In this document: piece by piece, positions 394 to 32,000 of the stretch | Layout of the letters: every line of letters begins with the position of its first letter | How positions within the stretch are numbered: position 1 is the stretch's first letter | Origin: Nostoc punctiforme PCC 73102 | Lineage (GTDB): Bacteria > Cyanobacteriota > Cyanobacteriia > Cyanobacteriales > Nostocaceae | Length of the DNA stretch: 32,000 nt | Direction: 5' to 3' | Assembly: GCF_000020025.1 (NCBI RefSeq) | Contig: NC_010628.1 | Location: 2,520,001-2,552,000, forward strand | Notes under the pieces: generated by a model | The model's database searches: none | Told to the model about the DNA's origin: nothing | What the model saw: the letters and a program-made list of their open reading frames with translations, nothing else | Made by a program: the position numbers and the translations under genes

Positions 394-426
394 GTTCAAG
401 TTCAATCAGTTCAGTTAAGATTTGTC

Positions 427-1300: not shown

Positions 1301-2095
1301 TTATTTTATTGAAAACTGAGGTAATCTGAATGACTCATAGGTATCTTTTGGCTTCCAGTCTGTAATTTCTGATTGAATCAGATTGAACAGCTTACTGACT
1401 TGGTTCTTATTTCTAATATAAAAGTGTCCTTCTGGAAAGAAATGACTTCTGAACTCTTTAGTCGTATGCTGTTCCCAAGCATTAATATCTTGTTGACTAA
1501 CCATTGGATCAAATATTCCTCCAAGGGCATGAATTGGGCAAGGTAAAGCTTCAATTGGACGGGGTTGATAACTCTCGCACAGCAGGAAATCGTCTCGCAT
1601 TAGTGGCAATAAAACTTTCATCCAAGCCTCATCGTTTAACATCGATTCTGGGATGCCACCGAATCGATTTACGAATGATTTAAACTCTTCTACGTTCATA
1701 CTATTGCAAGAGTTATGAGGATAGTGAATATGAGGAGCGCGGTGAGCGCCGAGAAATAAAATGAAGGGTAGGTTTGTATCTTTTTTGCGACATTCATGAG
1801 CTAATTCATAAGCAATTAGCGCACCTAAACTGTGTCCATAAAAAGCATAGGGTTGGTGTAGATATTGTTTGAGTTGACTGTACAGTTCTGGAATTAGAGT
1901 ATTAAAATCGGTGATGCGAGGTTCACCAAAACGGTTCTCTCGTCCAGGTAACTGTACTGAGCATACTTCTACATTATGTTCTTGCAAGGACTCAGCCCAA
2001 CCTCTAAAACAAGAGGCTCCTCCCCCTGCAAAGTGAAAACAAAAAAGATGGGTTTTTGAATTCATGGAAACAGGCTCAGTTAACCAAAGAGTCAT
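1301..2095 (-). CDS. Type II (stand-alone, editing-type) thioesterase
   Basis: 264 aa. Motifs: LFCFHFAGGGASCFRGW, nucleophile elbow GHSLGALIAYE, C-terminal FFPEGHFY. These are hallmarks of discrete PKS/NRPS TEII enzymes. The start ATG overlaps the stop of the upstream hydrolase (ATGA, 2092-2095), implying translational coupling. Confidence 0.85.
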   Translation of the reverse strand: MTLWLTEPVSMNSKTHLFCFHFAGGGASCFRGWAESLQEHNVEVCSVQLPGRENRFGEPRITDFNTLIPELYSQLKQYLHQPYAFYGHSLGALIAYELAHECRKKDTNLPFILFLGAHRAPHIHYPHNSCNSMNVEEFKSFVNRFGGIPESMLNDEAWMKVLLPLMRDDFLLCESYQPRPIEALPCPIHALGGIFDPMVSQQDINAWEQHTTKEFRSHFFPEGHFYIRNKNQVSKLFNLIQSEITDWKPKDTYESFRLPQFSIK

Positions 2096-6566: not shown

Positions 6567-6660
6567 TATATTTCTCCAATTTGAATTGGGCATTGGGCAT
6601 GGAGGGAAGAAAGATAAGGTGGATTCATCGAGTTCAAAAACTCTGTACACTAAGTTTTTT

Positions 6661-6815: not shown

Positions 6816-6873
6816 AAAATTAACTTACCCTACGTTACACAGCAGTTCTAAAAGATTTGTGTGTACACGGTAG

Positions 6874-12492: not shown

Positions 12493-12498
12493 GGTTTT

Positions 12499-12530
12499 AA
12501 TTCGTAATTCGTAATTCGTAATTCGTAATT
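12499..12530. repeat. Heptamer STRR-type tandem repeat (AATTCGT) x 4.6
   Basis: Copies at 12499-12505, 12506-12512, 12513-12519 and 12520-12526, with a partial copy at 12527-12530. The repeat ends 6 nt upstream of the module-3 ATG (12492). Confidence 0.95.
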
Positions 12531-12557
12531 TAAAAAAGCCAGATTTAATCTGGATTT

Positions 12558-12679
12558 CTGATACCAATTTGAAAAAAGAGGCGTTGCCTAGATGCGGGAT
12601 GATCTTATTTACCTTTGCGTCTTTGCGTGATATTTTCTTTTATCCAGCAACGCCTTTTCAAAATCCCAAATGGTATCAG
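12558..12679. mobile_element. MITE-like inverted-repeat element (about 122 bp) overlapping the module-2 stop codon
   Basis: The left arm is CTGATACCAATTTGAAAAAAGAGGCGTTGC (12558-12587). The right arm is GCAACGCCTTTTCAAAATCCCAAATGGTATCAG (12647-12679). They are imperfect reverse complements. The core carries CCTTTGCGTCTTTGCGTG (12612-12629). The right arm includes the TGA stop (complement of 12676-12678). No transposase is present. Confidence 0.45.
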
Positions 12680-18600: not shown

Positions 18601-18726
18601 ACAACCTAATCCAACGATCGCAATTGGTTCTGCTTTGAGTAATTCTAGTTTAGATTCTAATTGTTGAGCTGCGAAGGCTAGTTTGACGGGGGACATCTCG
18701 GAGATGCGTTTAGAAAAGCTGTTCAT
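12676..18726 (-). CDS. Type I PKS module KS-AT-cMT-KR-ACP (second extension module)
   Basis: 2016 aa. Approximate domains: KS 17345-18630 (TACSSS, HGTGT, NFGH); AT 16275-17040 (GHSVGE, HAFHS); C-methyltransferase 14620-15790 (SAM motif LEIGAGTGGTT at about 15115-15153); KR 13380-13945 (GGLGFLG, no LDD motif, Y in DYDAANHF); ACP 12860-13080 (MGMDSL). There is no DH. Confidence 0.92.
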   Translation of the reverse strand: MNSFSKRISEMSPVKLAFAAQQLESKLELLKAEPIAIVGLGCRFPGGVDSPEAYWELLRNGVDAITEVPKERWDVDAYYDPDPSKPGKINTRNGGFLAEVDGFDPHFFNISPREAISLDPQQRLLLEVTWEAMENANQTPQNLFNSPTGVFIGISADDYSQRLLDAEGREGIDAYFGTGKAFSAAAGRLSYFLGLTGPSFAVETACSSSLVSVHLACQSLRQRECNLALAGGVNLILSPEASLTFSKARMLADDGHCKTFDAAANGYARGEGCGIIVLKRLSDAITDQDRILAVIRGSAVNQDGPSGGLTVPNGPSQEAVIQRALATAGVEPAQVSYVEAHGTGTFLGDPIEVGALGAVFGKNHSPSNPLNIGSVKTNFGHLEAAAGIAGLIKVVLQLQHQEIAPHLHFQQPNPHINWEALPITVPTQSTPWIVPGDRRIAGVSAFSFSGTNAHVVLEESPTSGTSSVTNPEQPFNLLTLSAKTPEVMQKLASRYHLYFKAHPELSLADVCFSANTGRSHFPYRFSLVANSSSQLCDQLAALAAGETNVTGIWQGQQPATKSKIAFLFAGQGSQQAGMGQELYATQPTFKAALDECAEILRPYLDVPLLELLWGNSSHLLDQTAYTQPALFAVEYALYQLWQSWGIQPDAVLGHSVGEYIAACVAGVFSLADGLKLIASRAKLMQALPSGGAMAAVLVDKSKLVQALAPYAKQVAIAAHNGPRSFTISGAVEPLEAVCKALSANGGKIKRLSVSHAFHSTLMEPMLAEFEAVARQVKYQQPRIPVIANLTGQVAGGQIATPQYWVRHVREAVQFEMSIQTLHQDGYELFVELSAKPTLLSMARQCLPESTGVWLPSLRPGQSDWQSLLSSLGQLYVSGATVEWSSNRPSHKVALPTYPWERQRYWIETPQKQAQLARSQSTASTSIVRLIDQGNTQELLQQLATTSNYSPEQQELLLEMLTQLVKQHHQQVTAESIQDWLYELNWRSQARFGKELYPNYLPTPEQISSDLNPQIAELLPELNSYRQEVLSPLEAISIDYVVKAFQDLGWNFQIGSRFSTESLAQQLGVISQHRRLWQRLVEMLAEVGIVQRLGTQWEVTQVPQKGDPQAQIEHLHHQYPAAQAELTLLGNCGPNLAEILQGKCDPLQLIFPDGDATIATQFYQESPGARVMNILVRQAVSSALQQLPVGRGLRVLEIGAGTGGTTAHLLPLLSQEQTEYVFTDVSPVFLGQAQQKFPDYPCLRYQTLDIEKDPISQGFPAEQYDIIVASNVLHATKDLRVTMQHARQLLAPGGILVLMEVTARQRWLDLIFGLLDGWWRFEDVDLRPDYALLTTVQWQKLLKEVGFSTTTALPSITQNSGVLPEQAVMVAQVAKIPAYSSQNWLILADQQGIGQQLANQLRSQGQECVLVFQGEKYRDLGEQSFVVAPDRLEDFSRLLTSQSAINKVVHLWGLDAPNADVLTVEGIKTATHNGCGSILHLIQAILQAEASQLPRLWLVTEGTQAIANQVLPLPGIAQSPLWGMGKVISLEHPEAWGGMIDLEPGLASEKAASILQAEILESDGEDHIVFRQQQRYVARLVRSQHPENLQNLKFQADGSYLITGGLGFLGLKLAQWMVEQGAKEIILAGRRGLPPRQQWASLSENTEEGRKVKAIQALEAKGAKVTILVVDVCDLVQMSLALKQVHTIHSPLRGIIHAAGVTPGYQALQNLDSKTLEAVLYPKTVGTWVLHCLTQEIKLDFFVCFSSAGSVWGAKGQGDYDAANHFLDTFAHYRRSIGLPALSVNWALIGSGGMVNAEYDRWLSRIGIEEFPAEAGFNALGFLLAANVTQTVVAKVDWGKFKAVYEANKQRRLLLDIEVASENEPEEATVKQPEILEKLKTAQECDRHDLLVAYLQSEVAQVLGLGSAHLPDPQQGFFNMGMDSLITLELRNRLAASLNCTLPSTLAFEFPTINDLVAYLSTEVLGWESSVTETLELPITHEQVNTLFEIEQLGEDEIEASISQRLARLESFLQDAN

Positions 18727-18828: not shown

Positions 18829-21800
18829 TTAGGCGTGGGATAAATTGACTAATTTGTTTTGGATGTCAAATTCTGACATCTGCTCTAGTTCAGAAAGCAG
18901 TGCTTCTAGTTCATCATCTTGAGCGATTTCCACCGTTGCTGCTGTGGTTGACTCTAAAGCTAGTACTTCCCGCGAGAGATAATCTACCAGTGCTTCGAGT
19001 GTAGGATAATCAAACAGCAGCGTTGTGCGTAGCGAACAACCTAAGCTTGACTCCAAGCGATTCTTTAACTCGATCGCCATCAGAGAATCTACACCCAAGT
19101 CGAACAATCGTTGGCGAGGCTCAACTTTTTCTGGAGAATTCCATCCGAGTATTTGAGCGATTTGTGAACGGACATGAGTTGCTAGGAGTTGTTGACGAGT
19201 ATTAGGTGGGCTATCTTCTAATTGGTTGAGGAATTGCGATCGCTCGTTCACTTTTGTTGAGGTTGGCGCTAGCACCTCGAACAGTTTCAGATTGGTTCGG
19301 CTAGAAAACTGTTTAACAAACAAAGACCAATCAATTGTCATTACTCCGACTTGCGGGATTTGCTGAGTTAATAATTCTCCCAACACCTGCAAACCTTGTT
19401 CTGGGTTAATGGGAACGATTCCCTGGTCTTTCAATCTGGCTTGTTCTCTACTTCCCAAATTAGCTGCCATTCCGGTTTCTGCCCAAGGGCCCCAGTTGAT
19501 AGTTAATCCAGGTAAACCCAATCCCCGGCGATAGGAAGCGAGGGCATCCATGAAGGCATTAGCGGCTGCATAATTGCTTTGACCAACTGAACCGATGAGG
19601 GAAGCAATGGAAGAGAAACAGACGAAGAAATCTAAAGGCAAGTCTTGAGTTAAGGTGTGCAGATTCCATGCTCCAGCTACTTTTGGAGCCATGACGCGGC
19701 TAAAGCGCTCCCAAGATTGTTGCAGGAGGAGTCCGTCATCTAAAACCCCGGCGGCGTGGATGATGCCGCGCAAAGGAGGATGAGATGAGCGAATTTGCTG
19801 GAGACACTGGGCGACTTCTTGAGGATTGGTGATGTCTGCGGTAATAATTGTGACTTCTACCCCAGCCGTTGCTAAACGAGCGATCGCATTTTGAGCGTCT
19901 GTCGAAGGTGAACGGCGACCCACCAACACTAAATGCTTTGCTCCTTGCTGGGCAAGCCATTGCGCTACTTCTAGTCCGAGCGCCCCAAGTCCGCCGGTAA
20001 TCAGGTAAGTACTTTCAGATGTGACTGGGATTGGAGATTTCGTAAATTGGGCGCGGACTTGTTCTAGGCGGGCTACATATCGTTTGCCTTGGCGATAGGC
20101 AATTTGGTCTTCTGTGTCTGTGGAGAATAACTCAGCTAGCAAAATTTGAATATCTTCGGTGGCAGTTAGCGGTAGGTCAAGGCGTGTGCAGTTTAGTTCT
20201 GGATGCTCGATCGCAATTACCCGACCTAATCCCCAAAGTGTAGTCTGTGACAGTTGTAGAGGTTCGAGATTGCTATCAATAGCTTGAGTACCTCTGGTCA
20301 CCAACCACAAGCGCGGTTGAGTTTGCTGCTGGGATTGTACAAGCGCCTGTACTAAATGTAGAACGCTGGCACAACCTAATGTTTGTGCTTTGTCAAGACC
20401 CTGTAGGGATAAATTTTCAGTTGTGTCTTCTGCTAAACCCCAGAGGTGAATGACACCATCTAAGTTAGGAATATCTTGCAGCAGTTGGCGGAAGTGTTCT
20501 GGTTCTGTGGGGTCAAGCTGGTAATGTTGGCTGCCTAACTGGTGGTAAATTTCTCCGACTTCTGCAAGTATACTGTAGTGTCCTTGCTGTTCTAGCTGTT
20601 GAGCTAATTCCAGCCCGTTTTCTGTACCATCAGTGAAAATCAACCAATTTCCTGGTTCGTGGTTGACTGGAGATGCTACATTTTCTTGCAGTTGCCAGTG
20701 GATTTGATATAACGAATCTCGTCCTTCCGATTGCAGACTATTCAGTAAAACGGCACGAGAGGCTTTTCTCGCTTCAAAGCCAATTACTTCTGCTATTATC
20801 TGTCCAGCATCGTCAAATAAGTAGAGGTCGCCAACTCGCTTGTCTTCCTGGGATTCTGTCCCGTGTTGCAACCGCGCATGACACCAAAACACATCACTGC
20901 TGGGACGTTGGAAAAACCGGAATTGTTTGATGCTCAAGGGAATAAATGTCTCGTCGCCGTTGATTGTCCCCGTTGCTGCCAGAATTAAATGGAAACATGA
21001 GTCAATTAAGCCTGGATGCAATTGATATTCAGCAGCATCAAAGGCAGCCGGAGGTGCTTGCAAACAACCTAACGCTTCTCGTTCTCCGAGCCAAACTGTG
21101 TTGAGCCAACGGAAGCTAGCTCCTAATTCAATCTGGCGTTCCCACTGCGCTTGATAAAGGTCTGCGCCTGGTATTTCTTGGTTACAGCGCTTTTGAATCT
21201 CACTCCACGAAACAGGCTTTAGGGTGGTATTATTAGCCGATACTTGAGCGATCGCATGAACAATCCAACTCACCTGTTCTTGAGGATGAGAGGGATTTTC
21301 AAAACTCAAGACTTGTGCGGCTAAGTTACCTGATTCTTCAGGTGTCAGTGCTAATTGTACAGTTCGCTCTTTGCCTTTAGCGATCGCCAACGCTTTCGGA
21401 AAAACGATATTCTCCAACAAACAACCCGGTTTCCCAAATGTTAATTCTGCTGCTGCCAACAACAGCGATAAGTGAGATGCTCCCGGTACCACTATTTCGT
21501 TATAAACTAGATGGTCAGCGATAAATGGCACTAATTCAGTATTAAAGCGAGTTTCAAAGAAAGTTTGTTTAGAAAGGGGCGATCGCAACTGCTTGTCTAC
21601 GAGTGGGTGCAATTTACTAGTTGGCTTTCCAGATAAGCTCTTTAGCCAGTAACGCTGACGTTGCCAAGGGTAAGTAGGTAATACTATTTTGCGACTAGGC
21701 CGATTGCCTGCCCAACCAGACCAATCCACTGTGACACCAGATACATACAATTGCCCTAAACTTGTCAGCAAGCTGTGGGAATCTGACTGTCCTGGACGCA

Positions 21801-24381
21801 AGCTAGGTAACCAAACTCCGGTAGATTCTGGCAGACATTGCCGTGCCATTCCTAAGAGAGTGGGCTTTGCACTGAGTTCGACAAATAACTCATATTTTTC
21901 CTCGTGCAACGTTTGAATACTCGCTTCAAATTGCACAGCTTCCCGCACATGCCGCACCCAATATTCTGGCGTAGCAATTTCCGCTCCTGCTACTTGCCCG
22001 GTGCGATTGGCAATCAGTGGTATTCTCGGTTGGTGGTAGGTAATTGTATTGGCAATTGTCGCATACGCTCCTAGCATTGGTTCCATCAAAGGCGAGTGGA
22101 AGGCATGGGAGACGCTGAGGCGTTGCGTTTTGCCTCCTTGGGCGGCTATGGTTTGGCTAATGGACTCCACAGCAGCAACCGGCCCAGCAATGGTAAAGCT
22201 GCCGGGAGCATTATAGGCAGCAATTACTACTTCATTCTTATAAATATTCAGTACTTCTAGTAGTTTGGATTTATCTACCAACACCGCAGCCATCGCCCCG
22301 CCACTTGGTAAAGCTTGCATGAATCGGGAACGAGCCACGATTAACTTTAGCCCATCTTCTAAACTAAAGACTCCCGCAACGCAAGCGGCAATGTATTCTC
22401 CAACACTATGCCCTAAGACAGCATCGGGTTGAATTCCCCAAGATTGCCACAATTGATCGAGGGCGTATTCAATGGCGAAGATGGCAGGTTGGGTATAGGC
22501 GGTTTGGTCGAGGAGATGAGAGGAATTACCCCAGAGAATTTCTAGCAGAGGGACATCTAAACGAGTTAAGATATCGGCGCATTGGTCAATGGCAACTTTG
22601 AAAATCGGTTGAGTAGCGTAGAGTTCTCGACCCATTCCGACTTGTTGAGAACCTTGTCCCGCAAACAAAAAGGCGATTTTAGACAGTGTATCGCGGACAG
22701 GACTTGTAAGCACTCCAGCAGTTTCGTTACCTGCGTTAAAAGCTGCAAGTTGTTGCTGCAACTCGGCAATTGATTCTGTGGTAATAGCTAACCGATGGTC
22801 AAAATGCGATCGCCCCACATTAGCTGTATAACAAACATCATCAATAGATATCTCCGGTTGCGCCTCCAGAAATTCTTGATAACTTTGTGTTAACTGACGT
22901 AGAGCAACTTCATTTTTTGCGGAGACTGTAAAAAGGTTGCTGCAACTTCTCCCCTGCTCCCCTGCTCCCCTGCTCCCCTGCTCCTCTTCAGAAGGAGCTG
23001 CTTCTAAAATAATATGAACATTAGTCCCACTCATCCCAAAAGAACTGACACCTGCAAACCGTTGTCCTTCTTTAGCTGACCAAGGAGTAAGCGCCGTCGG
23101 CACCACAATCGGCAGTTTTCCCCAAGGAATGTGGGGGTTAGGATTTTGAAAATGCAGGTGCGGAGGAATTTGGCGATTAGATAAGGAAAGAACAACTTTC
23201 ATCAAGCTAGCTACACCAGCAGCGGCTTCCAAATGACCAAAGTTGGTTTTCACTGAACCGATGGCTAAGGCTTCTTCGGCTGAACGACCTTGACCTAAAA
23301 CTCTTTCTAAAGCCAACACTTCAATCGGATCGCCGAGAGAAGTTCCGGTTCCGTGGGCTTCTACATATTGAATTTGCGTCGGTTCTACCCGCGCTTCCTT
23401 TAAAGCTTGGCGAATTAATCTTTCCTGCGCCAAACCATTGGGTGCTGTGAGTCCATTACTTTTACCGTCGTGGTTGACAGCGGAACCGCGAATCAAGGCA
23501 ATGATATTATCACCGTCAGCGATCGCTTCAGACAACCGCTTCAGCACCACAACGCCGCACCCTTCCCCCCGACTATAACCATCGGCGCTTGCATCGAAGG
23601 TTTTGCAACGACCATCGGGAGCTAAGGCTTTCAGCTTACAGAAGCTAATCGTCATCGCTGGCGACAGCATCAAATTGACACCGCCTGCTAAAGCTAAGTT
23701 GCATTCCCCAGTGCGTAAACTCTGACAAGCTAAGTGGATTCCTAACAGTGAAGACGAGCAAGAAGTATCAAGTTGCAGCGTCGGCCCTTGCAATCCCAAA
23801 ACATAAGCAACGCGACCAACGGCAATACTCCGGGCACTTCCCAAGCTACTATAGGCATCAATGCGATTTAAGTCACCAGAATTGACGCTCAAACGCGAGT
23901 AATCATCTGAGCCAATGCCCACAAAAACGCCTGTGCTGCTACCTTTGAGAGACTCTGGAGGTTGACCAGCATTTTCTAAAGCTTCCCAAGCTACTTCTAA
24001 AAGTAAGCGTTGCTGGGGGTCCATACCTTCGGCTTCTCTGGGAGAAATCCCAAAAAACTCCGGGTCAAATTCATCTACTTCATTGATGAACCCACCGTTA
24101 CGTACATACATTTTACCAGGGGCATCATGGTCAGGATGGTAGCAGCGATTAACGTCCCAGCGATCGCTCGGAATTGGGGCGATCGCATCTACACCATCAC
24201 GCAGTAAATCCCAGTAAGCTTGCGGATTTTTGACTCCTCCCGGAAAACGGCAACCCATTCCAATAATAGCGATCGGTTCAGTTTTCTTTTGTTCTACGGC
24301 TTCAAGTTGAGTACGCGCGTCTAGGAGGGCTTGAAGTATGCGTTCTGATGAAGAGAGTGTTTCTGAAGTGTAGTTTGACAT
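18829..24381 (-). CDS. Type I PKS module KS-AT-DH-KR-ACP (first extension module)
   Basis: The start is taken at ATG 24379-24381 (MSNYTSE...), with GGAGAA (complement of 24392-24397) 10 nt upstream. The track start at 24399 is a TTG. Approximate domains: KS 22995-24279 (TSCSSS, HGTGT, NFGH); AT 21920-22680 (GHSVGE at about 22400-22413, HAFHS at about 22094-22113); DH 20750-21615 ([24 protein letters not shown]); KR 19480-20015 ([10 protein letters not shown] suggesting B-type); ACP 18990-19220 (LGVDSL). Confidence 0.92.
22950..22981 (-). repeat. Octamer microsatellite (TCCCCTGC) x 4 in the KS-AT linker of module 1
   Basis: Four perfect units at 22950-22957, 22958-22965, 22966-22973 and 22974-22981. 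They encode [12 protein letters not shown]. Confidence 0.95.
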
Positions 24382-24534
24382 TTTATACCAATTCTCCAAA
24401 ACAAGGCAACAGATTTAAATTTGGAAACCCAGACAAAATGCATATTTGTGAGATGATTTATCTCAGGCAGAAGCATCTACCGTGTATACACAAGTTTTTT
24501 AGAGTTGTTGTGTAATTTAAAGAAAGTTAATTGT

Positions 24535-24740: not shown

Positions 24741-24776
24741 TTAGCGTAGCGGGGCGTAGCCCATTACGAATTATTA

Positions 24777-27700
24777 TTATCTCCTTCCATTCTTTCCGAG
24801 CAAGTTTTCCAGTTTGGCAAGTTCCTGAGCAATTGAGGTTTCCAAAGGTGTTGTTGTCGGTGGGATGAATTCAAACACAGCTTTTGCAGAAACCTTCACC
24901 GAATCTTGAGGTTCTGGTGTTGTCGCCAGGAATGCTAAATGTTCAGCCAAAGATTTGACTGTGGGAAAGTTCCACAGGATAGTCGATTCCAGTGGATATT
25001 TCAGCCACTCTTCTAAATCTTGGGCTAATTCCACCGCCATCACGGAATCTAAACCGTAGTCAGCAAAGGAGGTATTAGCATTTACAGAACGCGCAGCAAT
25101 TCTTAATTTCTTAATCAGCCATTTTTCTAGCCAATTTTGAATAGAGACGCGATGAATCGCGTCTGTACAAGAGTTAGGAGTAGAGACGCGATTGATCGCG
25201 TCTGTATAAGGGACAAGATTAATCGCGTCTGTTAGCAATTCTTCCCCTGCTCCCTCATCTTCCGCTACTTCCCCTACTGCTTCTAATTGCAGAAGTTCAT
25301 CTAAGTTGTGGTTCTCTCCGGCTGAAGTTTGTACCACATCACCGATCGCTGCAATATAGTCGGAAATTTGAGCGCTTACAGCTTCGGCATCTGATAAAAT
25401 CTTTTCTGCGGGAGTTCCAGTGAGGACGCTAGCGAGTTTTTGCTCAAATTGTAACTTTGCCCAGGTGACAGCACGTTGGAGTTCAGCAGATGGCGATCGC
25501 TCTAATTCTCCTTGAACTGCTGCCAGTAAAATTGCGAAGGTAACTACTTCACCTGTACGAATATAAGCCCAATGTTGTGCTGATTTACTTTCTAAGAAAG
25601 CTGGTTGTACGCTTGTTAAATGCGTTTTAATCTGATCTACAGCTACCACCAGATTTTTAGCTACCGTTGGCGCGCCCAATTCTTCACTTAAAAAGCGGTG
25701 TAACTCTGCGCTTTGATTCATCGCACGAGAACCAAGGAACATATTCAGGGTTTCGGTGGGGCCTTCAAAAATGCGAAATAATCTGGCATCGCGGAGGATT
25801 TGCGGCGCAATGTTGGTTTCGATGTAGCCACGACCACCTAACATTTGTACTAAGCGATCGGCTGCTTGCCAAACTAGTTCCGGCCCCGCTGTTTTACAGG
25901 CGGTGAAGGCTTCTTGAGGAATGGCGCGTCCTTGGTCTAATAAATCGGCAATTTTGAACAGTAGGGTTTCTAAAGATGTAATTGCTGCTGTTAAATCACT
26001 CAGCCAAACCAGAGAAATGGGATTATTAAGTAACCTTCCTGTGGACACAGAACGACGGGAACTGTAGCGCAGCATCAACTGGGCGCAGCGTTTCATTCCA
26101 CCGAGGCTCATCACGCCGATGATTAATCTGCCGTGCATCATCGCATCTTGGGCGACTTCCATGCCGTTATTGAGCGTTCCTAAAAGATTCTCTGGAGTAA
26201 CCAAGACATCTTTGAGGTAAATAGTATTTTGCACCATCCCGCGCACACCCATCGTCAGCGCTTCCGGCCCTTGAGAAAATCCTGGTGTTCCTTGACGAAT
26301 TATAAAGCTGCTAATTCCAGTTGGTTGATTATTCGCATCCAGCGTTTGAGCGAAGACATTAGTTACCCCCGCCCATGAACCATGACCAATCCAGATTTTC
26401 TCACCGCGTATTCTCCAACCGCCAGCATCAGGAATTGCTCGTGTAGCGATCGCTCTCGGATTGGAACCTGCTGTCTGTTCGGTGATGGCAAAACCAGCCA
26501 ACTCGCGCCCACCAGCCAGTAACGGCAGTATTTCCTGACGCACATTCTCTGGTGCATAATTCAAAATCGGGCGAGTACCTAAAACGTGGTGAACCGCCAC
26601 AAAGGACGCTAGGGTTAAATCAATCGCCGCCAATTGCTCGAAAACGCGGAAAGTATCTCGATAACTGAGAGCCAAACCGCCGTACTCTTCGGGAATTTGC
26701 ATCCCCAAAAGTCCGCGATTGCCAAAATCAAGGACAATATAAGGCGGAATACAACGGCGTTCATCAATTAATCGGGAGTTAATGCGATCGCCTGCATAAC
26801 CGCGCAACCACTCAATGATATTATCAGCTTTGGTTTTGCTGACAACTGACTGCACAGGAACTTCTGACTCAGCTTCTGTTTCAAATTTCCACTCGCCCAC
26901 CACCTCTAAAGCATTCTCCACAAACTTGGCTCGACAAGTGCGGCGCTGAATCTTACCACTAGAAGTTTTGGGAATAGTTGCCGTTTTTAGTAAAATTACT
27001 GCATATAATTGCAATTCATGTTGTTGTGATACCGCACGCCGGATTGCTCCTACCACCTCTTCTACATCTAACTTTCGCAAATGTAGCCGTTCTATTTCTT
27101 GAGCCACAATCAACCGTTCCTCGCCCTCAATCTCTACCGTAAAAGCGGCGGTACAAGTCGGTCGAAGTGCTGGGTGGCTCTTTTCAACAGTAAGTTCAAT
27201 ATCTTGTGGGTAATGATTGCGACCACGAATAATAATTACATCTTTAATGCGTCCGGTGACAAAAAGCTCACCGTTATGAACAAATCCTAAATCACCTGTA
27301 CGCAGATATGGCCCTGCTTTGGTATCTTTCAAATAAGCTTGAAAAGTTTCCGCCGTCGCTTCTGGTCGATTCCAATAGCCCAGAGGAATCGTAGAGCCAG
27401 ATGCCCAAATCTCCCCAACCTCGTCATCACCGCGCTGGGTCAAGGTTTCTGGATTAACAATAACAATTTGAGTATCAATTTCTGTCCAGCCACAACCAAC
27501 AAACTGGCGACATCTGGGATGATTGGCGCTCACTTCCACAACCCGATGTTGCTCTAGAGCCTCAGCATCAACATGGAGATAAACAGGTAAATCTTTTGAC
27601 CGCACAGCAGAGACTTTCAAAGTTGCTTCCGCCAAACCATACCCCGGACAGAATGCTCGTCCATCAAACCCAGAGGGTTTAAACGCCTCAACAAACTCTT

Positions 27701-28631
27701 CTAAAACATCTGCTCTCACTGGTTCTGCACCATTCAGCGCCATCCGCCAACTGCTGAGGTCTAACTTAGCTCTTTGTTCTGGCGTTATTTTCTCCGCACA
27801 CAATTTATAAGCAAAGTTGGGAGCGCCACTGTGAGTTCCGCGATAACGAGAAATCGCTTGTAGCCAACGAATCGGCTTTTGGAGAAAGCTTACAGGAGCC
27901 ATCATGTAGCAAGTACAACCTTTGTATAGAGGTTGCAACATTCCATAAATCAGTCCCATATCGTGGAAAGTTGGTAGCCATGTGACAATGACGCTATTTT
28001 CATCATGATCCCAACCTAAATCCAAGTCAGCAGAATTACGTAAAAGGTTATCATGAGTAACCATTACCCCCTTCGGTGTTCCCGTCGAACCGGAAGTATA
28101 TTGCAGAAAAGCTAACGTCTCGCCATTGATTTCCGGCCGAACCCAACTAGAACCATCACCAAGAATTAAATCGTTTGTTGGTAACCACTCTATCTCAGCT
28201 AACGCTGAACTGTACTTGCCTATATCCTTCAAATTAGCCATAACCCCAGATGTAGTCAGCACAATCTTGGCTTCCGCATCCAAGACAATAGCTTCCAACC
28301 GAGAAAGCTTGTGATTTTGTCGGGGAGGATAAGCCGGAATGGGAACGATTCCAGCATATAAACAGCCAAAAAACGCCGTAATAAAATCTAATCCGGCGGG
28401 ATAAAGCATCAAAGCGCGTGGGCTTTGCCCGTCGTAGACATCGCCAGCATTCATTATAGATTGGAGATGAATAGCGATCGCTCTAGCTTGCCGGTCTAAC
28501 TCTTGATAACTAATCTGTATAGATTGAGATTCATCTTCCCCATCAAGGAGAAAAGTATAAGCAATACGTGACGGTTGTTCCTTTGCTCTAGTAAGCAGCA
28601 ATTCAACCAAATCTTTAAACTGATTGTTCAT
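24777..28631 (-). CDS. Tri-domain loading protein: fatty acyl-AMP ligase (FAAL) - acyl-CoA dehydrogenase-like domain - ACP
   Basis: 1284 aa. FAAL, approx 26890-28631: LQYTSGSTGTPKGVMVTH, YLRTGDLGF, GRIKDVIIIRGRNHYPQDIE. ACAD-like, approx 25690-26835: ITEQTAGSNP, and RIFEGPTE, which matches the YEGT catalytic-Glu motif. ACP, approx 24900-25140: ADYGLDSVMAVEL, with the Ser codon near 25044-25046. The linker between ACAD and ACP carries in-frame repeats. Confidence 0.9.
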   Translation of the reverse strand: MNNQFKDLVELLLTRAKEQPSRIAYTFLLDGEDESQSIQISYQELDRQARAIAIHLQSIMNAGDVYDGQSPRALMLYPAGLDFITAFFGCLYAGIVPIPAYPPRQNHKLSRLEAIVLDAEAKIVLTTSGVMANLKDIGKYSSALAEIEWLPTNDLILGDGSSWVRPEINGETLAFLQYTSGSTGTPKGVMVTHDNLLRNSADLDLGWDHDENSVIVTWLPTFHDMGLIYGMLQPLYKGCTCYMMAPVSFLQKPIRWLQAISRYRGTHSGAPNFAYKLCAEKITPEQRAKLDLSSWRMALNGAEPVRADVLEEFVEAFKPSGFDGRAFCPGYGLAEATLKVSAVRSKDLPVYLHVDAEALEQHRVVEVSANHPRCRQFVGCGWTEIDTQIVIVNPETLTQRGDDEVGEIWASGSTIPLGYWNRPEATAETFQAYLKDTKAGPYLRTGDLGFVHNGELFVTGRIKDVIIIRGRNHYPQDIELTVEKSHPALRPTCTAAFTVEIEGEERLIVAQEIERLHLRKLDVEEVVGAIRRAVSQQHELQLYAVILLKTATIPKTSSGKIQRRTCRAKFVENALEVVGEWKFETEAESEVPVQSVVSKTKADNIIEWLRGYAGDRINSRLIDERRCIPPYIVLDFGNRGLLGMQIPEEYGGLALSYRDTFRVFEQLAAIDLTLASFVAVHHVLGTRPILNYAPENVRQEILPLLAGGRELAGFAITEQTAGSNPRAIATRAIPDAGGWRIRGEKIWIGHGSWAGVTNVFAQTLDANNQPTGISSFIIRQGTPGFSQGPEALTMGVRGMVQNTIYLKDVLVTPENLLGTLNNGMEVAQDAMMHGRLIIGVMSLGGMKRCAQLMLRYSSRRSVSTGRLLNNPISLVWLSDLTAAITSLETLLFKIADLLDQGRAIPQEAFTACKTAGPELVWQAADRLVQMLGGRGYIETNIAPQILRDARLFRIFEGPTETLNMFLGSRAMNQSAELHRFLSEELGAPTVAKNLVVAVDQIKTHLTSVQPAFLESKSAQHWAYIRTGEVVTFAILLAAVQGELERSPSAELQRAVTWAKLQFEQKLASVLTGTPAEKILSDAEAVSAQISDYIAAIGDVVQTSAGENHNLDELLQLEAVGEVAEDEGAGEELLTDAINLVPYTDAINRVSTPNSCTDAIHRVSIQNWLEKWLIKKLRIAARSVNANTSFADYGLDSVMAVELAQDLEEWLKYPLESTILWNFPTVKSLAEHLAFLATTPEPQDSVKVSAKAVFEFIPPTTTPLETSIAQELAKLENLLGKNGRR
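25142..25234 (-). repeat. Three copies (two full, one degenerate) of a 26-bp palindromic mini-repeat inserted in frame in the ACAD-ACP linker
   Basis: Copy 1, TAGAGACGCGATGAATCGCGTCTGTA, is at 25142-25167. Copy 2, TAGAGACGCGATTGATCGCGTCTGTA, is at 25181-25206. Copy 3 is degenerate, at about 25211-25234. Each has 9-bp arms, AGACGCGAT / ATCGCGTCT. They translate as TDAINLV.. TDAINRV.. TDAIHRV. Confidence 0.9.
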
Positions 28632-28835: not shown

Positions 28836-30056
28836 CTAACCTACGAAATCCCTAGCCTGATGCTTGTAATATACAGGCTGCCACATTTTCGCCTTCAGCC
28901 AACCGCTAGAATTAAACAATCTGTAAAAAATTGTCCGCAGAGAAACTGTCAAATTAGTAGAAAGAGTCAACATTTTCTCCTGACGAAGCTGCATATTCCG
29001 TATCGGACGCAAATCTTTTTCTCGAATTGCTTGAAACTCCTTCAAAACACTAGCCTTCACCGGAGAACCAGGATTTTCTGTCAAAGCTTTCGCCACAAAT
29101 GGAGCCAACGTAACAGCGTCAAAAATAGCATGATTCACACCTTGACCAAGAATAGGAGATAAAGTATGTGCAGCATCTCCAATTAATACAAATCCTTCCC
29201 GATACCACTGCGGAACAACAGTCATGAAAATGTCTAAGATAGTCGTATCCGACCAACTTGTTATCGACTTCTTCGCACCCTCAGCTAAATCAGGTTCAAT
29301 TTGAGCAATTTTCTCATGTAAATATTGAATTCCTTGCGCCTTAATTTTTTGTATTCCTCCCTTCGGAATATTAAAACCTACCCGCAATAAATTAGGATAA
29401 CTGGGGATAACTACTGCATGACTATCGCGGTCAATCTTCACACGATAAGATAGTTTTTGTTTCCAATGTTCTGGAATGGGGACTTTAAACCACATAAAGT
29501 CTCTCTCCAACATCCGCTTAACATATTTGCACTTCGCCATGTCACGAGTTTTGCTATAACGTCCATCAGAACCCACTGTTAGGTGAGCATTAATTGTTAA
29601 CTGATCATCTTCAGTTTTACACTTCACACCAACAATAGCTTCTCCATCCTCAATTAATTCCGTACAATTAGCACCACGCAAAATCGTGAATCCTTCGTAT
29701 TGCGAAGCTTTCTGAATTAACGCCTCCAACATGACAGGTTGCGGCACATCAATAGGATATTTAAAATCATATTTGAAATCACTCAAATTGATATGTAAAA
29801 CTCTCTGATTATTTTCAAACAACTCCAACTGACGAGTATAGAGAACATCATGTTCACCAAAACCCTCCATAATTCCCAGCTTATCAAGAATATAAACAGA
29901 ATCCGGCGAAATTGATTCACCTCGAAAAGAGCGCGTATAAGCTTTTGCTTGCTCCAAGACAACAACATTCAGATTTCTTCTAACCAACTCCAAAGCCAAA
30001 GTCAAACCAGACGGTCCGCCGCCAACAATGCACACATCAGTATCAATCGTTCTCAT
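28836..30056 (-). CDS. FAD-dependent (group A, UbiH/PHBH-type) monooxygenase
   Basis: 406 aa. Motifs: DVCIVGGGPSGLTLALEL (GxGxxG), GSDGRYSKTR (DG motif), LIGDAAHTLSPILGQGVNHAIFDA (GD motif). Confidence 0.85.
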   Translation of the reverse strand: MRTIDTDVCIVGGGPSGLTLALELVRRNLNVVVLEQAKAYTRSFRGESISPDSVYILDKLGIMEGFGEHDVLYTRQLELFENNQRVLHINLSDFKYDFKYPIDVPQPVMLEALIQKASQYEGFTILRGANCTELIEDGEAIVGVKCKTEDDQLTINAHLTVGSDGRYSKTRDMAKCKYVKRMLERDFMWFKVPIPEHWKQKLSYRVKIDRDSHAVVIPSYPNLLRVGFNIPKGGIQKIKAQGIQYLHEKIAQIEPDLAEGAKKSITSWSDTTILDIFMTVVPQWYREGFVLIGDAAHTLSPILGQGVNHAIFDAVTLAPFVAKALTENPGSPVKASVLKEFQAIREKDLRPIRNMQLRQEKMLTLSTNLTVSLRTIFYRLFNSSGWLKAKMWQPVYYKHQARDFVG

Positions 30057-30149: not shown

Positions 30150-30911
30150 TCATTCGCAAAACTTTTCCAGCGATTCTCTAATATCGCTCAAAATATCTGC
30201 CGCCATCGCACCATCAATTACCCGATGGTCAAAAGTCATACTCAAACGCATCACAGGAGCAATTTTAATTTCCTCCTTTTGTACAACAGCCTGCGATTGA
30301 ATTTGTCCCAATCCAAAAGTGAGTGTAGTTCCTCCTACCGAAAAAAAGCTGTTAATTGATTTGTGGCCGAGTGAAGAAACCGAGAATGTACCCAGGCGGC
30401 TTCTCCGTCTTTTTAAATCGGCAAGAATCAAACCAAATATCAATTCTGCTAAGAACAAAGGAAGTTTTTGTAACTTTTTCAGAGCAGCGTATTCCTGAAT
30501 ATTATCAAAATCATTTAATTTGTAATAATCAATGGTGTTTTGAATTCCTTGTAAAGAAATTTGGTTAGCATGAGGAATTAAACCAGGAAGAACTACACGC
30601 TGCTCACCTATTTTTTTGTCCAAAGCAAACTTTGCGCTTACAGTATCAGACTGCGCTAACTTCGGTAATAATCCCCCTAAAAGACTGCTATTAGCTTCTG
30701 GATATTTAGAGAGAACTCGTGCAGCCGCATAGATAAAATAAGTGATGATGCTCAATTTAGTTTGTGCCAGTGTAGCCGAACCTTCTCGTAAATTGAGAAT
30801 TTTCGTCATGTCTACATCTGTATCTATAAAAACAGGACTGCAAGCTCTGGCATAGTTTAAAAAAGCAAAGGTATGTTTCCGTTCATTGGGAAAAGGCAGA
30901 ATGTTAATCAT
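30150..30911 (-). CDS. Stand-alone 2-oxoacid dehydrogenase E2-type (CAT-fold) acyltransferase, catalytic domain only
   Basis: The start is taken at ATG 30909-30911 (MINILPFPNERK...), giving 253 aa. The track start at 31016 is a TTG overlapping the ACP gene. The C-terminal MTFDHRVIDGAMAA contains the HxxxDG catalytic motif of E2/CAT-fold acyltransferases. There is no lipoyl or subunit-binding domain. Confidence 0.75.
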   Translation of the reverse strand: MINILPFPNERKHTFAFLNYARACSPVFIDTDVDMTKILNLREGSATLAQTKLSIITYFIYAAARVLSKYPEANSSLLGGLLPKLAQSDTVSAKFALDKKIGEQRVVLPGLIPHANQISLQGIQNTIDYYKLNDFDNIQEYAALKKLQKLPLFLAELIFGLILADLKRRRSRLGTFSVSSLGHKSINSFFSVGGTTLTFGLGQIQSQAVVQKEEIKIAPVMRLSMTFDHRVIDGAMAADILSDIRESLEKFCE

Positions 30912-30930
30912 AAAGGTTGAATATTCTTGC

Positions 30931-31152
30931 TTACTGAATAGACTCGTAAATGTCTTTGATATTACGTGCTTGCAGCATAGATAAAACAGAGACTTTCTTA
31001 CCTGTGCGGATTTCAATCGAAGTAATCAAACGCAATAGACCAAGAGAATCCCAGCCTCCTAATTGATCAAAAGGAGTATTAATATCTTGTTCGGCAATCG
31101 GTAATTCTAGTACGTCTTGAATGAGATAAACCAAATCTGTAACGTTATTCAC
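30931..31152 (-). CDS. Discrete acyl carrier protein
   Basis: The start is taken at GTG 31150-31152, with AGGAG (complement of 31161-31165) 8 nt upstream. It overlaps the FkbH stop (GTGAATAA). The product is 73 aa with a phosphopantetheine site in LGGWDSLGLLRLI. The track start at 31206 is a TTG inside the FkbH gene. Confidence 0.75.
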   Translation of the reverse strand: MNNVTDLVYLIQDVLELPIAEQDINTPFDQLGGWDSLGLLRLITSIEIRTGKKVSVLSMLQARNIKDIYESIQ

Positions 31153-32000
31153 GAGTAAAACTCCTGTAGTCAGAAGATAAATTGATATGCTTAACAGAAA
31201 GAGCAATATTGTCTGTCAATGAGCGAAGATAAAGTACTCTCTGAGGAGTTTCTTCAACAAGTTCAAAGCCTTGCTTTTTATAAAAATCATGGACTTTCTG
31301 ATTTTTGGAAGATGGAATATACTCTGCGTAAACCTTTTCAATTTTTGCTTCTTTAGCCTGCTGTAAAATATGTTCTAGGCTAATTGTTTCAATCCCTCGT
31401 GAGAAAACCCGACAACTCAGTAGAAAATTATCTATGTAAAGTTCGCGTTCCTTGTCGATAGGTTGGCGAGTAAAGATACAGCCAACAATTCCATTGTCTC
31501 CAAACCGGTCTTGAGACTCAATTCCAATAATTGTGATAGATGAATCATCAAGAAGTTGATTAATTTCTCCCTCTTGATAGCGCTTAGTAGTCATATTGAA
31601 CTGATTGGTGCGTAAAGTGAGTTGAGAAATTCGCACAATATCTGCTTGTTGGGGTGCGAACAACTTCACTTTCAGTTCCAGTTCATTCAAGTAATCATCT
31701 ATGGAATCAAAATTTCCGAGAAATTCTTGGCGTTTAACCTCAGTTTTATATTTTTGAGTCCGGCTGTAATCTTCTTTGGTGATTTCAAGAGTATTGAACC
31801 AACCTCCTGTAAGCAAAGTTTTGGTGTAGCTTGCTGGGTCTTCTTCAAGTTCCAGCACCGTAACATTTGGCTGTTTGGAACGTACAAGATTGCGTTCAAA
31901 TTCACTATCATCAACAAAGACAAAACTATCTAAACCCAAGTTCAGCGATTGAGAAATTTCTTTCAGGTTTTCATGTTTTGGAGACCAGTTGGCGCAGATG
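31145..32000 (-). CDS. FkbH-like glyceryl-S-ACP synthase (HAD-IIIC phosphatase family), 5' end outside the window
   Basis: The reading frame stays open up to base 32000 (ICANWSPKHENLKEISQSLNLGLDSFVFVDDSEFER...), so the Met at 31939 is internal. Features: HAD-type FVDD motif, NQFNMTTKR, the conserved FkbH Cys motif FLLSCRVFSRGIE, and a GNAT-like C-terminal part. Confidence 0.85.
   Translation of the reverse strand, partial: ICANWSPKHENLKEISQSLNLGLDSFVFVDDSEFERNLVRSKQPNVTVLELEEDPASYTKTLLTGGWFNTLEITKEDYSRTQKYKTEVKRQEFLGNFDSIDDYLNELELKVKLFAPQQADIVRISQLTLRTNQFNMTTKRYQEGEINQLLDDSSITIIGIESQDRFGDNGIVGCIFTRQPIDKERELYIDNFLLSCRVFSRGIETISLEHILQQAKEAKIEKVYAEYIPSSKNQKVHDFYKKQGFELVEETPQRVLYLRSLTDNIALSVKHINLSSDYRSFTRE

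What the first reader, a model, noticed from the sequence alone, without database searches (positions are those of the whole stretch)
30150..32000. Tetronate-style glycerate cassette (FkbH, ACP, E2-like acyltransferase, distal hydrolase) attached to a cyanobacterial FAAL-primed PKS, with no FabH-like gene in view
Seen in the sequence: 31145-32000 encodes an FkbH-family protein that keeps the conserved Cys motif (FLLSCRVFSRG). Its stop overlaps the GTG start of a 73-aa ACP (GWDSLG). Nineteen nt further downstream starts a 253-aa protein that is only the catalytic domain of a 2-oxoacid dehydrogenase E2 (DHRVIDG), with no lipoyl domain. The PKS line ends in a TE-less KS-AT0-ACP module without reductive domains, which would carry a 3-ketoacyl thioester, and an alpha/beta hydrolase follows (2092-3192). 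Established knowledge: in tetronate pathways (agglomerin Agg1-5, abyssomicin AbyA1-A5, chlorothricin ChlM/ChlD1-D4, RK-682 RkD/E/F) an FkbH-type enzyme plus an ACP make glyceryl-S-ACP. A FabH-like enzyme then fuses this to a TE-less 3-ketoacyl-ACP to form the ring. An E2-like acetyltransferase plus an alpha/beta hydrolase then acetylate and eliminate to give the exocyclic methylene. Inference: four of the five cassette functions appear to be present, in the D1-D2-D3 gene order. The FabH-like ring-forming enzyme is missing from the window; it could lie beyond base 32000 or be functionally replaced. Tetronates are overwhelmingly actinobacterial, so a fatty-acid-primed cyanobacterial version would be new chemistry. 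Alternatives are that glycerate serves as an ester-forming unit or as a precursor of a hydroxymalonyl-type extender.
Basis: partly seen in the sequence, partly recalled or inferred. Interest (0 to 1): 0.72.

Follow-up and report, generated by a model that had tools for sequence, protein, structure and literature searches.

The report
Known Nostoc nostovalerolactone gene cluster

Summary
They are the C-terminal part of FkbH (31145-32000), a 73-aa ACP (30931-31152), a lipoyl-less E2-like acyltransferase (30150-30911), a FAAL-ACAD-ACP loader, four PKS modules ending in a TE-less KS-AT0-ACP, and an alpha/beta hydrolase (2092-3192).

A contig 100% identical to the window extends it and places a FabH-like gene 10 nt upstream of FkbH, so all five tetronate-cassette functions are present.

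The hydrolase matches the AbyA5 crystal structure (E=5e-71). The FabH-like protein matches 5BY7, which I identify as AbyA1 (E=2.5e-91). All five proteins align over nearly their full length, in the same order, with the abyssomicin abyA1-A5 locus (37-45% identity).

The proteins are exact matches to Nostoc punctiforme PCC 73102 entries (ACC80697, ACC80704, ACC80707). This is the pks1/nvl cluster, assigned in 2022 (Krumbholz et al., Angew. Chem., PMC9324945) to nostovalerolactone and described there as the first tetronate-type pathway in a cyanobacterium. The product carries a delta-valerolactone fused to an oxepane-like ring rather than a tetronate.

The side observations are the dead AT in NvlM and compact related clusters in Microcystis and other cyanobacteria.

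The parts
31145..32000 (-). nvlE, C-terminal 284 codons of a 638-aa FkbH-type glyceryl-S-ACP synthase. The gene starts about 1061 nt beyond the window end.
   Evidence: Open frame with the LLSCRVFSRG Cys motif. The full-length protein from L001 scores 324 bits on TIGR01686. DLDNTLW and SCR motifs are shared with the AbyA2 orthologue. 39.9% identity over 627 aa to the aby-locus FkbH.
30931..31152 (-). nvlF, discrete 73-aa ACP (GTG start, 8-nt overlap with nvlE)
   Evidence: PF00550 E=1.4e-8. Sequence. The gene call in L001 is also 73 aa. 38% identity to the AbyA3 orthologue.
30150..30911 (-). nvlG, 253-aa lipoyl-less E2-like acyltransferase (Agg4/AbyA4 type)
   Evidence: PF00198 only. All NCBIfam E2 models score far below their cut-offs. 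FDHRVIDG and SLGH are conserved with AbyA4. 38% identity over 249 aa to the AbyA4 orthologue. Exact match to ACC80704.1 of N. punctiforme.
28836..30056 (-). nvlH, 406-aa FAD-dependent monooxygenase
   Evidence: PF01494 E=5.9e-40. A homologue follows the cassette in all four compact cyanobacterial clusters examined. The authors propose it as a candidate for the oxidative rearrangement.
24777..28631 (-). nvlI, FAAL-ACAD-ACP loading protein (1284 aa)
   Evidence: AMP-binding, Acyl-CoA_dh N/M/C and PP-binding domains. Described as NvlI, octanoate-activating.
18829..24399 (-). nvlJ, KS-AT-DH-KR-ACP
   Evidence: Pfam. AT has GHSVG and HAFH.
12676..18726 (-). nvlK, KS-AT-cMT-KR-ACP
   Evidence: Pfam.
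6874..12567 (-). nvlL, KS-AT-DH-KR-ACP
   Evidence: Pfam.
3324..6650 (-). nvlM, terminal TE-less KS-AT0-ACP. The longest ORF is 1108 aa; the public gene call starts at window 6566 and gives 1080 aa.
   Evidence: Pfam. KS has TACSS, HGTGT and NIGH intact, while the AT shows GHSVG->GDNIG, Arg->His and HAFH->QTFN. Gene call in L012.
2092..3192 (-). nvlN, 366-aa AbyA5/Agg5-type alpha/beta-hydrolase-fold acetate-eliminating lyase
   Evidence: PDB AbyA5 4YWF/5NO5 E=5e-71 over residues 5-334, against FrsA at 1e-11. LSFSG, RDEIIP and DVHGSP are conserved. Exact match to ACC80697.1.
1301..2095 (-). Discrete type II thioesterase, 264 aa (probably nvlO; the name is inferred from the alphabetical gap between N and Q)
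   Evidence: PF00975 E=3.5e-44. A TEII follows the cassette in L015, L017, L018 and L019 and in the Dactylosporangium locus L011.
574..1023 (-). SRPBCC / Polyketide_cyc2 protein, 149 aa (probably nvlP; name inferred)
   Evidence: PF10604 E=1.6e-11.
1..117 (-). First 39 codons of the FMO-like Baeyer-Villiger monooxygenase (nvlQ, 513 aa), which runs off the window
   Evidence: L012 is 100% identical to window 1-6720. Its gene at 6604-8145 carries PF00743 FMO-like. NvlQ is named as a putative BVMO.

Best explanation
The window is the nvl sub-cluster of the pks1 biosynthetic gene cluster of Nostoc punctiforme PCC 73102, which makes the signalling polyketide nostovalerolactone by a tetronate-like route.

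Shown here by sequence:
- A complete five-gene tetronate cassette is present. It comprises FabH-like NvlD (just outside the window), FkbH NvlE, ACP NvlF, E2-like acyltransferase NvlG and AbyA5-like lyase NvlN.
- A FAAL-ACAD-ACP loader and four PKS modules are present. The last module (KS-AT0-ACP) has no reductive domains and no TE.

Inferred from established tetronate biochemistry (Tmn16/Tmn7a, RkD/E/F, Agg4/Agg5, AbyA5) and from the published model:
1. NvlI adenylates and loads a C8 fatty acid, and its ACAD domain desaturates it.
2. NvlJ-M add four ketide units (one C-methylated), leaving a 3-ketoacyl thioester on the NvlM ACP.
3. NvlE dephosphorylates 1,3-bisphosphoglycerate, or a related C3 acid, and transfers the glyceryl unit through its Cys to NvlF.
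4. NvlD joins glyceryl-S-NvlF to the 3-ketoacyl-ACP, releasing the chain without a TE.
5. Oxygenases (NvlH and/or NvlQ) divert or rearrange the ring into the delta-valerolactone/oxepane bicycle.
6. NvlG O-acetylates the glycerate-derived hydroxymethyl group, and NvlN eliminates acetate to give the exocyclic methylene.
7. Hydration then gives nostovalerolactone.
For: Identity of the locus:
- NvlG, NvlN and NvlD are exact matches to N. punctiforme PCC 73102 proteins ACC80704.1, ACC80697.1 and ACC80707.1. The consecutive accession numbers match the D-to-N gene order.
- Contigs L001 and L012 are 100% identical to the window. They extend it to an AraC-type regulator, an ACP, a PPTase and FabH on one side, and to a BVMO and a PAL-containing furanolide sub-cluster on the other. 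This matches the published pks1 layout.

Cassette membership:
- FkbH TIGR01686 at 324 bits.
- NvlN against AbyA5 structures, E=5e-71.
- NvlD against 5BY7, E=2.5e-91, compared with 1e-29 or weaker for housekeeping FabH. 5BY7 is the aby-locus FabH-like protein (720 bits).
- NvlD shares with it Cys and Asn, with His replaced by Pro in the triad.
- tblastn shows the five genes collinear with the locus holding a 99%-identical AbyA5, at 44.7, 39.9, 38, 38.2 and 36.9% identity.
- Catalytic motifs are conserved.

Published support for cluster, product and model: PMC9324945. Roles of abyA1-A5: PMC3625739.
Against: - The link between cluster and product in the literature rests on regulator overexpression, homology and acetate labelling. 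The main text reports no nvl structural-gene knockout.
- 13C-glycerol and 13C-glucose feeding did not label the product, so the glycerate origin of the C3 unit is unproven.
- The ring system is not a tetronate, and the order of cyclisation and rearrangement is unknown.
- The NvlM AT is catalytically dead, so the fourth extension needs malonyl loading in trans. The main text of the published model does not address this.
- I compared the proteins with Aby orthologues, not directly with Agg, Chl or Rk sequences.
Confidence: 0.92

Rival explanations
1. A canonical 3-acyl-5-hydroxymethyl-tetronate (agglomerin/RK-682-like) is the true first product of NvlD. Nostovalerolactone would then be a later product of Baeyer-Villiger-type ring expansion by NvlH/NvlQ. 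In that case the cassette works exactly as in actinomycetes, and only the tailoring is unusual.
For: All five cassette proteins align over nearly their full length with Aby orthologues and keep their catalytic motifs. Two monooxygenases flank the cluster. The authors report an extra oxygen and a rearranged labelling pattern.
Against: The main text reports no tetronate intermediate. The authors favour a 'non-canonical cyclization sequence'. An NvlH homologue is conserved even in the compact clusters that lack NvlQ, which fits an integral rather than a late role.
Confidence: 0.3
2. FkbH and the ACP make glyceryl-ACP as a precursor of a hydroxymalonyl- or methoxymalonyl-ACP extender unit (an FkbG-K-type pathway), used by the module whose own AT is dead.
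For: FkbH plus a discrete ACP are shared with that pathway. NvlM has an inactive AT, so its ACP must be charged by some other route. An ACAD domain exists in the cluster.
Against: No FkbK-type 3-hydroxyacyl-CoA dehydrogenase and no O-methyltransferase gene lies in the window or in the roughly 6-kb flanks. The only ACAD is fused inside the FAAL loader. The FkbH is flanked instead by the FabH-like, E2-like and AbyA5-like genes that define tetronate cassettes.
Confidence: 0.03
3. Glycerate serves only as an ester-forming or off-loading nucleophile. The E2-like protein would transfer the polyketide onto the glyceryl hydroxyl, and no C-C ring closure would follow.
For: E2-like enzymes are CAT-fold acyltransferases with an active-site His (FDHRVIDG). 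The PKS has no TE domain.
Against: An AbyA1-type FabH-like gene lies directly upstream of FkbH. NvlG and NvlN pair like Agg4/Agg5 (acetylation, then elimination). The isolated product is cyclised and carries the exocyclic methylene.
Confidence: 0.04

Closest known systems
nvl sub-cluster of the pks1 BGC, Nostoc punctiforme PCC 73102 (nostovalerolactone; Krumbholz et al. 2022, PMC9324945)
   Same: It is the same locus. The proteins match exactly, and both the gene order and the flanking genes (AraC regulator, BVMO, PAL/furanolide sub-cluster) agree.
   Different: Nothing differs at sequence level. The main text of the paper does not comment on the dead AT of NvlM or on the TEII and SRPBCC genes.
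Abyssomicin tetronate cassette AbyA1-A5 (Verrucosispora/Micromonospora maris; structures 5BY7, 4YWF, 5NO5)
   Same: All five proteins are homologous over nearly their full length (37-45% identity), in the same A1-A2-A3-A4 order, with conserved catalytic motifs. A TE-less PKS terminus feeds the cassette.
   Different: In Nostoc the AbyA5 homologue sits after the PKS genes, about 27 kb from the E2-like gene. The chain is FAAL-primed. The product is not a spirotetronate and has no tetronate ring. An extra FAD monooxygenase follows the E2-like gene.
Agglomerin (Agg1-5) and RK-682 (RkD/E/F) linear acyl-tetronate pathways
   Same: A fatty-type acyl chain is combined with a glyceryl-ACP unit. Acetylation and elimination by Agg4/Agg5 give an exocyclic methylene. 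The authors state the homology.
   Different: I did not compare these sequences directly here. Those pathways give true tetronates from simple 3-ketoacyl thioesters, whereas nvl has four type I PKS modules and an oxidative rearrangement.
Compact cyanobacterial clusters (Microcystis wesenbergii MAG, Xenococcaceae MAG, metagenomic contigs L015, L017, L018, L019)
   Same: They share the core FabH-FkbH-ACP-E2-FAD monooxygenase-TEII, and three of the four (all but L019) also have the AbyA5-like hydrolase. Their E2-like proteins are 61-66% identical to NvlG.
   Different: They have only one KS-AT-ACP module, with an intact AT, and two stand-alone ACADs plus an ACP instead of the fused loader. They lack the SRPBCC protein and the BVMO. 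One has a CylC-like halogenase. I know of no assigned products.

Membership tests
Tetronate biosynthesis cassette (Agg1-5 / AbyA1-A5 / ChlM+ChlD1-D4) | FkbH-type glyceryl-S-ACP synthase with a HAD DxDxT phosphatase motif and a catalytic Cys | tested here: met
   TIGR01686 at 324 bits against a cut-off of 146.65. DLDNTLW and LLSCRVFSRGI are present and aligned with the AbyA2 orthologue. 39.9% identity over 627 aa.
Tetronate biosynthesis cassette (Agg1-5 / AbyA1-A5 / ChlM+ChlD1-D4) | Dedicated discrete ACP encoded next to FkbH | tested here: met
   A 73-aa PF00550 protein, translationally coupled to FkbH, 38% identical to the AbyA3 orthologue.
Tetronate biosynthesis cassette (Agg1-5 / AbyA1-A5 / ChlM+ChlD1-D4) | FabH-like (KASIII-type) ring-forming enzyme of the AbyA1/RkD subclass | tested here: met
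   It lies outside the window, on the 100%-identical contig L001 at 3720-4754. E=2.5e-91 to 5BY7 (the aby-locus protein), against 1e-29 or weaker to FabH. It shares the His-to-Pro change in the triad. It scores below all NCBIfam FabH cut-offs.
Tetronate biosynthesis cassette (Agg1-5 / AbyA1-A5 / ChlM+ChlD1-D4) | Stand-alone E2 catalytic-domain acyltransferase (Agg4/AbyA4/ChlD3 type) | tested here: met
   PF00198 only, 253 aa. 38% identity over its full length to the AbyA4 orthologue, which lies next to AbyA5. The best 120 homologues listed are all stand-alone proteins of 222-330 aa; the named ones are cyanobacterial or actinobacterial. I did not compare it with Agg4 or ChlD3 directly.
Tetronate biosynthesis cassette (Agg1-5 / AbyA1-A5 / ChlM+ChlD1-D4) | AbyA5/Agg5-type alpha/beta-hydrolase-fold acetate lyase | tested here: met
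   E=5e-71 to AbyA5 structures 4YWF and 5NO5 over residues 5-334. The Ser, Asp and His motifs are conserved.
Tetronate biosynthesis cassette (Agg1-5 / AbyA1-A5 / ChlM+ChlD1-D4) | TE-less terminal PKS module presenting a 3-ketoacyl-ACP | tested here: met
   NvlM is KS-AT0-ACP with no KR, DH, ER or TE domain. A discrete TEII is encoded downstream.
Tetronate biosynthesis cassette (Agg1-5 / AbyA1-A5 / ChlM+ChlD1-D4) | Product contains a tetronate (4-hydroxy-2(5H)-furanone) ring built from a glycerate-derived C3 unit | not testable with these tools
   Literature only. The product has a delta-valerolactone fused to an oxepane-like ring, not a tetronate, and 13C-glycerol/glucose feeding gave no labelling. 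At the level of the product, membership is therefore 'tetronate-like'.
nvl/pks1 BGC of Nostoc punctiforme PCC 73102 | Sequence identity with the published locus and its flanks | tested here: met
   Exact protein matches to ACC80697.1, ACC80704.1 and ACC80707.1. The flanks hold an AraC regulator, a BVMO and a PAL sub-cluster, as published.
Methoxymalonyl/hydroxymalonyl-ACP extender pathway (FkbG-K) | FkbK-type 3-hydroxyacyl-CoA dehydrogenase, a stand-alone FkbI ACAD and usually an FkbG O-methyltransferase next to FkbH/ACP | tested here: not met
   None of these is present in the window or in the roughly 6-kb flanks. The only ACAD is a domain of the FAAL loader, and the only methyltransferase is the PKS cMT.
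2-oxoacid dehydrogenase complex E2 core | N-terminal lipoyl and subunit-binding domains, and a score above the equivalog cut-offs | tested here: not met
   It is 253 aa with the catalytic domain only. NCBIfam E2 models score 68 bits or less against cut-offs of 378-722. PDB E2 matches are local, at E of about 1e-10.

The most novel reading that the evidence does not exclude
The nvl-type cassette is not a one-off. A conserved, compact cyanobacterial cluster family occurs in Microcystis, a Xenococcaceae MAG and further metagenomic contigs. Its layout is two ACADs, an ACP, one KS-AT-ACP, FabH-like, FkbH, ACP, an E2-like protein, an FAD monooxygenase, usually an AbyA5-like lyase, and a TEII. This family may make an undescribed class of short acyl-tetronate or valerolactone signalling molecules. 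In N. punctiforme itself, the dead AT of NvlM and the failed glycerol labelling may mean that the last condensation and ring assembly differ mechanistically from the actinobacterial paradigm.
Probability: 0.35. Interest if true: 0.45.

Novelty: already known. Interest (0 to 1): 0.12.

Why it matters
As a discovery it does not matter, because the cluster, its product and its tetronate-like logic were published in 2022.

Three questions remain open for this known system:
- the source of the C3 unit;
- how a tetronate cassette produces a valerolactone/oxepane bicycle;
- how the AT-dead last module is charged.

Related compact clusters in bloom-forming Microcystis have no assigned product that I know of.

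Tried and rejected
- The supplementary Table S7 of PMC9324945 (homology table) is not held as text. I therefore re-derived the homologies myself.
- I spent the single genome-contig scan on the AbyA5 sequence to fetch the aby locus. As a result, Agg (Pantoea), Chl, Kij and Rk proteins were not compared directly.
- The best structural relative of NvlH is PDB 8UIU ('Flavin monooxygenase', E=2e-45). A literature search for that code returned only clinical papers containing '8 uIU', so its biology remains unidentified here.
- An Rfam scan of the window at gathering thresholds found nothing.
- I rejected the hydroxymalonyl/methoxymalonyl extender idea because the accessory FkbK/FkbG/FkbI-type genes are absent.
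- I rejected the 'genuine E2 of a 2-oxoacid dehydrogenase' reading because there is no lipoyl domain and the scores are sub-threshold.
- I rejected FrsA-esterase as the identity of the hydrolase, because AbyA5 matches 60 orders of magnitude better.
Full report
**1. What is in the window**

All long ORFs lie on the minus strand. Read in the direction of transcription, Pfam and NCBIfam give the following genes.

| Window coordinates | Gene product |
|---|---|
| 31145-32000 | FkbH, C-terminal part |
| 30931-31152 | 73-aa ACP |
| 30150-30911 | 253-aa protein that is only a 2-oxoacid-dehydrogenase E2 catalytic domain |
| 28836-30056 | FAD monooxygenase |
| 24777-28631 | FAAL-ACAD-ACP |
| 18829-24399 | KS-AT-DH-KR-ACP |
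| 12676-18726 | KS-AT-cMT-KR-ACP |
| 6874-12567 | KS-AT-DH-KR-ACP |
| 3324-6650 | KS-AT-ACP |
| 2092-3192 | FrsA-like alpha/beta hydrolase |
| 1301-2095 | type II thioesterase |
| 574-1023 | SRPBCC protein |

- The FLLSCRVFSRG motif is present.
- The GTG start of the ACP overlaps the last codons of FkbH, and the gap to the E2-like gene is 19 nt.
- DHRVIDG is present.
- The last AT is degenerate: GHSVG has become GDNIG, the conserved Arg is His, and HAFH is QTFN with internal deletions. The KS keeps Cys, HGTGT and NIGH.

**2. The missing gene**

An exact-protein look-up of the E2-like protein returned contigs that are 100% identical to the window over 6.7-6.9 kb and that run on past base 32000. 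On L001 the full FkbH gene is 638 aa. Ten nucleotides upstream of it ends a 344-aa KASIII-like gene. Before that come a HetI-type PPTase, a 153-aa ACP and a response-regulator/AraC gene.

On the other side, L012 (100% identical to window 1-6720) shows that an FMO-like Baeyer-Villiger monooxygenase begins at window position 117. It is followed by a second sub-cluster containing an ACP, a KS, another KASIII and an aromatic ammonia lyase.

**3. Is it really a tetronate cassette?**

- **Hydrolase.** It matches the crystal-structure sequences of AbyA5 (4YWF, 5NO5) at E=5e-71 over residues 5-334, against 1e-11 for FrsA.
- **FabH-like protein.** It matches PDB 5BY7 at E=2.5e-91, against 1e-29 or weaker for housekeeping FabHs.
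- **The aby locus.** Using the AbyA5 sequence I fetched a Micromonospora gifhornensis locus (L007) whose hydrolase is 99% identical to AbyA5. Its FabH-like ORF scores 720 bits against 5BY7, so 5BY7 is AbyA1 or its orthologue.
- **Collinearity.** tblastn of the Nostoc proteins against L007 finds five collinear genes in the order FabH, FkbH, ACP, E2, hydrolase. Identities are 44.7, 39.9, 38.0, 38.2 and 36.9% over nearly the full lengths. This matches the published abyA1-A5 sizes and order.
- **Conserved motifs.** FkbH keeps DxDxT and SCR. The E2-like protein keeps SLGH and FDHRVIDG. The hydrolase keeps LSFSG, RDEIIP and DVHGSP.
- **A shared derived character.** In alignments with genuine FabHs, NvlD keeps the Cys and the Asn of the triad but has Pro where FabH has His (lpPqls against vpHqan). 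5BY7 has the same change.
- **E2-like relatives.** Outside cyanobacteria, its relatives are stand-alone 243-330-aa proteins of Micromonospora, Streptomyces, Dactylosporangium, Actinomadura, Kutzneria and others, at about 41-48% identity. Real E2 cores match only locally, at about 1e-10, and all NCBIfam E2 models are far below their cut-offs.

The hydrolase falls with AbyA5 and the E2-like protein with its neighbour AbyA4, and a KASIII-like gene is adjacent.

**4. Identity of the locus**

The E2-like protein, the hydrolase and the FabH-like protein are exact matches to ACC80704.1, ACC80697.1 and ACC80707.1 of Nostoc punctiforme PCC 73102.

A full-text search found Krumbholz et al., Angew. Chem. 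2022 (PMC9324945). That paper describes exactly this cluster as the nvl part of the pks1 BGC:
- NvlI is FAAL-ACAD-ACP and is proposed to activate octanoate.
- NvlJ-M are four extension modules.
- NvlD/E/F are homologues of RkD/E/F.
- NvlG/NvlN are homologues of Agg4/Agg5.
- NvlH and NvlQ are candidate oxygenases.
- AraC_PKS1 is the regulator, and the neighbouring ncl sub-cluster holds the PAL.

[quoted passage not shown] A 2025 review still lists the FAAL substrate as a hypothesis. I found no later mechanistic paper.

**5. Mechanism, and what remains open**

Section 3 gives the sequence evidence for the cassette. The chemistry rests on established tetronate enzymology and on the published model. 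FkbH loads a glyceryl unit on the ACP. The FabH-like enzyme condenses it with the TE-less 3-ketoacyl-ACP. Acetylation (NvlG) and acetate elimination (NvlN) install the exocyclic methylene.

The product is not a tetronate. It is a delta-valerolactone fused to an oxepane-like ring, with an extra oxygen and a rearranged acetate-labelling pattern. 13C-glycerol and 13C-glucose feeding did not label it. The main text reports no structural-gene knockouts.

The main text also does not mention that the NvlM AT is dead. NvlM is 55% identical to NvlL and only about 36% identical to the single-module homologues elsewhere. It therefore looks like an internal duplicate whose AT has decayed, and its ACP would need malonyl loading in trans.

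**6. Relatives in other cyanobacteria**

E2-like homologues at 61-66% identity lie in compact clusters in a Microcystis wesenbergii MAG, a Xenococcaceae MAG and two metagenomic contigs. The layout is two ACADs, an ACP, one KS-AT-ACP with an intact AT, FabH-like, FkbH, ACP, E2-like, sometimes a PPTase, an FAD monooxygenase, an AbyA5-like hydrolase and a TEII. One cluster has a CylC-like halogenase. The FAD monooxygenase and the TEII travel with the cassette in all four. L019 lacks the hydrolase within the fetched stretch.

**7. Verdict**

The finding is already known, so interest is low. The modest remaining value lies in the side observations: the AT0 of NvlM, the compact cluster family, and the unresolved C3 source and ring chemistry.

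Noticed in passing
window 4026-4832 (AT domain of NvlM; active-site pentapeptide at 4557-4571): The AT of the terminal module is catalytically dead: GHSVG has become GDNIG, the conserved Arg is His, and HAFH is QTFN with deletions. The KS triad is intact. The ATs of the single-module homologues in other cyanobacteria are intact, and NvlM is closest to NvlL (55% identity), which suggests an internal duplication followed by AT decay. The main text of the nvl paper does not mention this.
   Followed up: partly
L015 1-16365; L017 1-14967; L018 1-14014; L019 1-13672: Compact nvl-like clusters occur in a Xenococcaceae MAG, a Microcystis wesenbergii MAG and metagenomic contigs. They hold two ACADs, an ACP, one KS-AT-ACP, FabH-like, FkbH, ACP, E2-like, an FAD monooxygenase, an AbyA5-like hydrolase (absent from L019) and a TEII. 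L015 adds a CylC-like halogenase and an ABC/RND exporter. I know of no assigned product.
   Followed up: partly
window 24540-24706 (and 24725-24745): Eight tandem copies of a 21-nt unit (GTCGATGCATTAAAGGTGCGA, 88% matches) lie in the 377-nt nvlI-nvlJ intergenic spacer, next to three heptamer repeats (TAATTCG type). These are probably STRR-like Nostoc repeats. Any regulatory role is unknown.
   Followed up: no
window 1301-2095, 574-1023 and 1-117: A discrete type II thioesterase, whose start overlaps the hydrolase stop, an SRPBCC/Polyketide_cyc2 protein, and the start of an FMO-like BVMO follow the hydrolase. A TEII also follows the cassette in the compact cyanobacterial clusters and in a Dactylosporangium locus (L011 11103-11780, 40% identity). 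The 2011 abyssomicin paper listed N. punctiforme as the best hit of the AbyT thioesterase.
   Followed up: partly
L001 3720-4754 (about window-equivalent 33072-34106): The tetronate-type FabH-like proteins (NvlD, AbyA1/5BY7 and the cyanobacterial and Dactylosporangium homologues) all have Pro in place of the catalytic His of the FabH Cys-His-Asn triad (LPPQLSG against VPHQAN), while keeping Cys and Asn.
   Followed up: partly
window 28836-30056: The closest solved structure to the FAD monooxygenase NvlH is PDB 8UIU ('Flavin monooxygenase', E=2e-45), far ahead of PyrE3, MtmOIV-like or PgaE-type enzymes (about 1e-13). I could not find out what 8UIU is.
   Followed up: partly
window 3900-4850, 9760-10730, 16070-17040, 21720-22680: The four PKS modules share long DNA repeats in the KS-AT region. 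They are 72-87% identical among NvlJ/K/L and 61-74% identical to NvlM, consistent with module duplication within the cluster.
   Followed up: no
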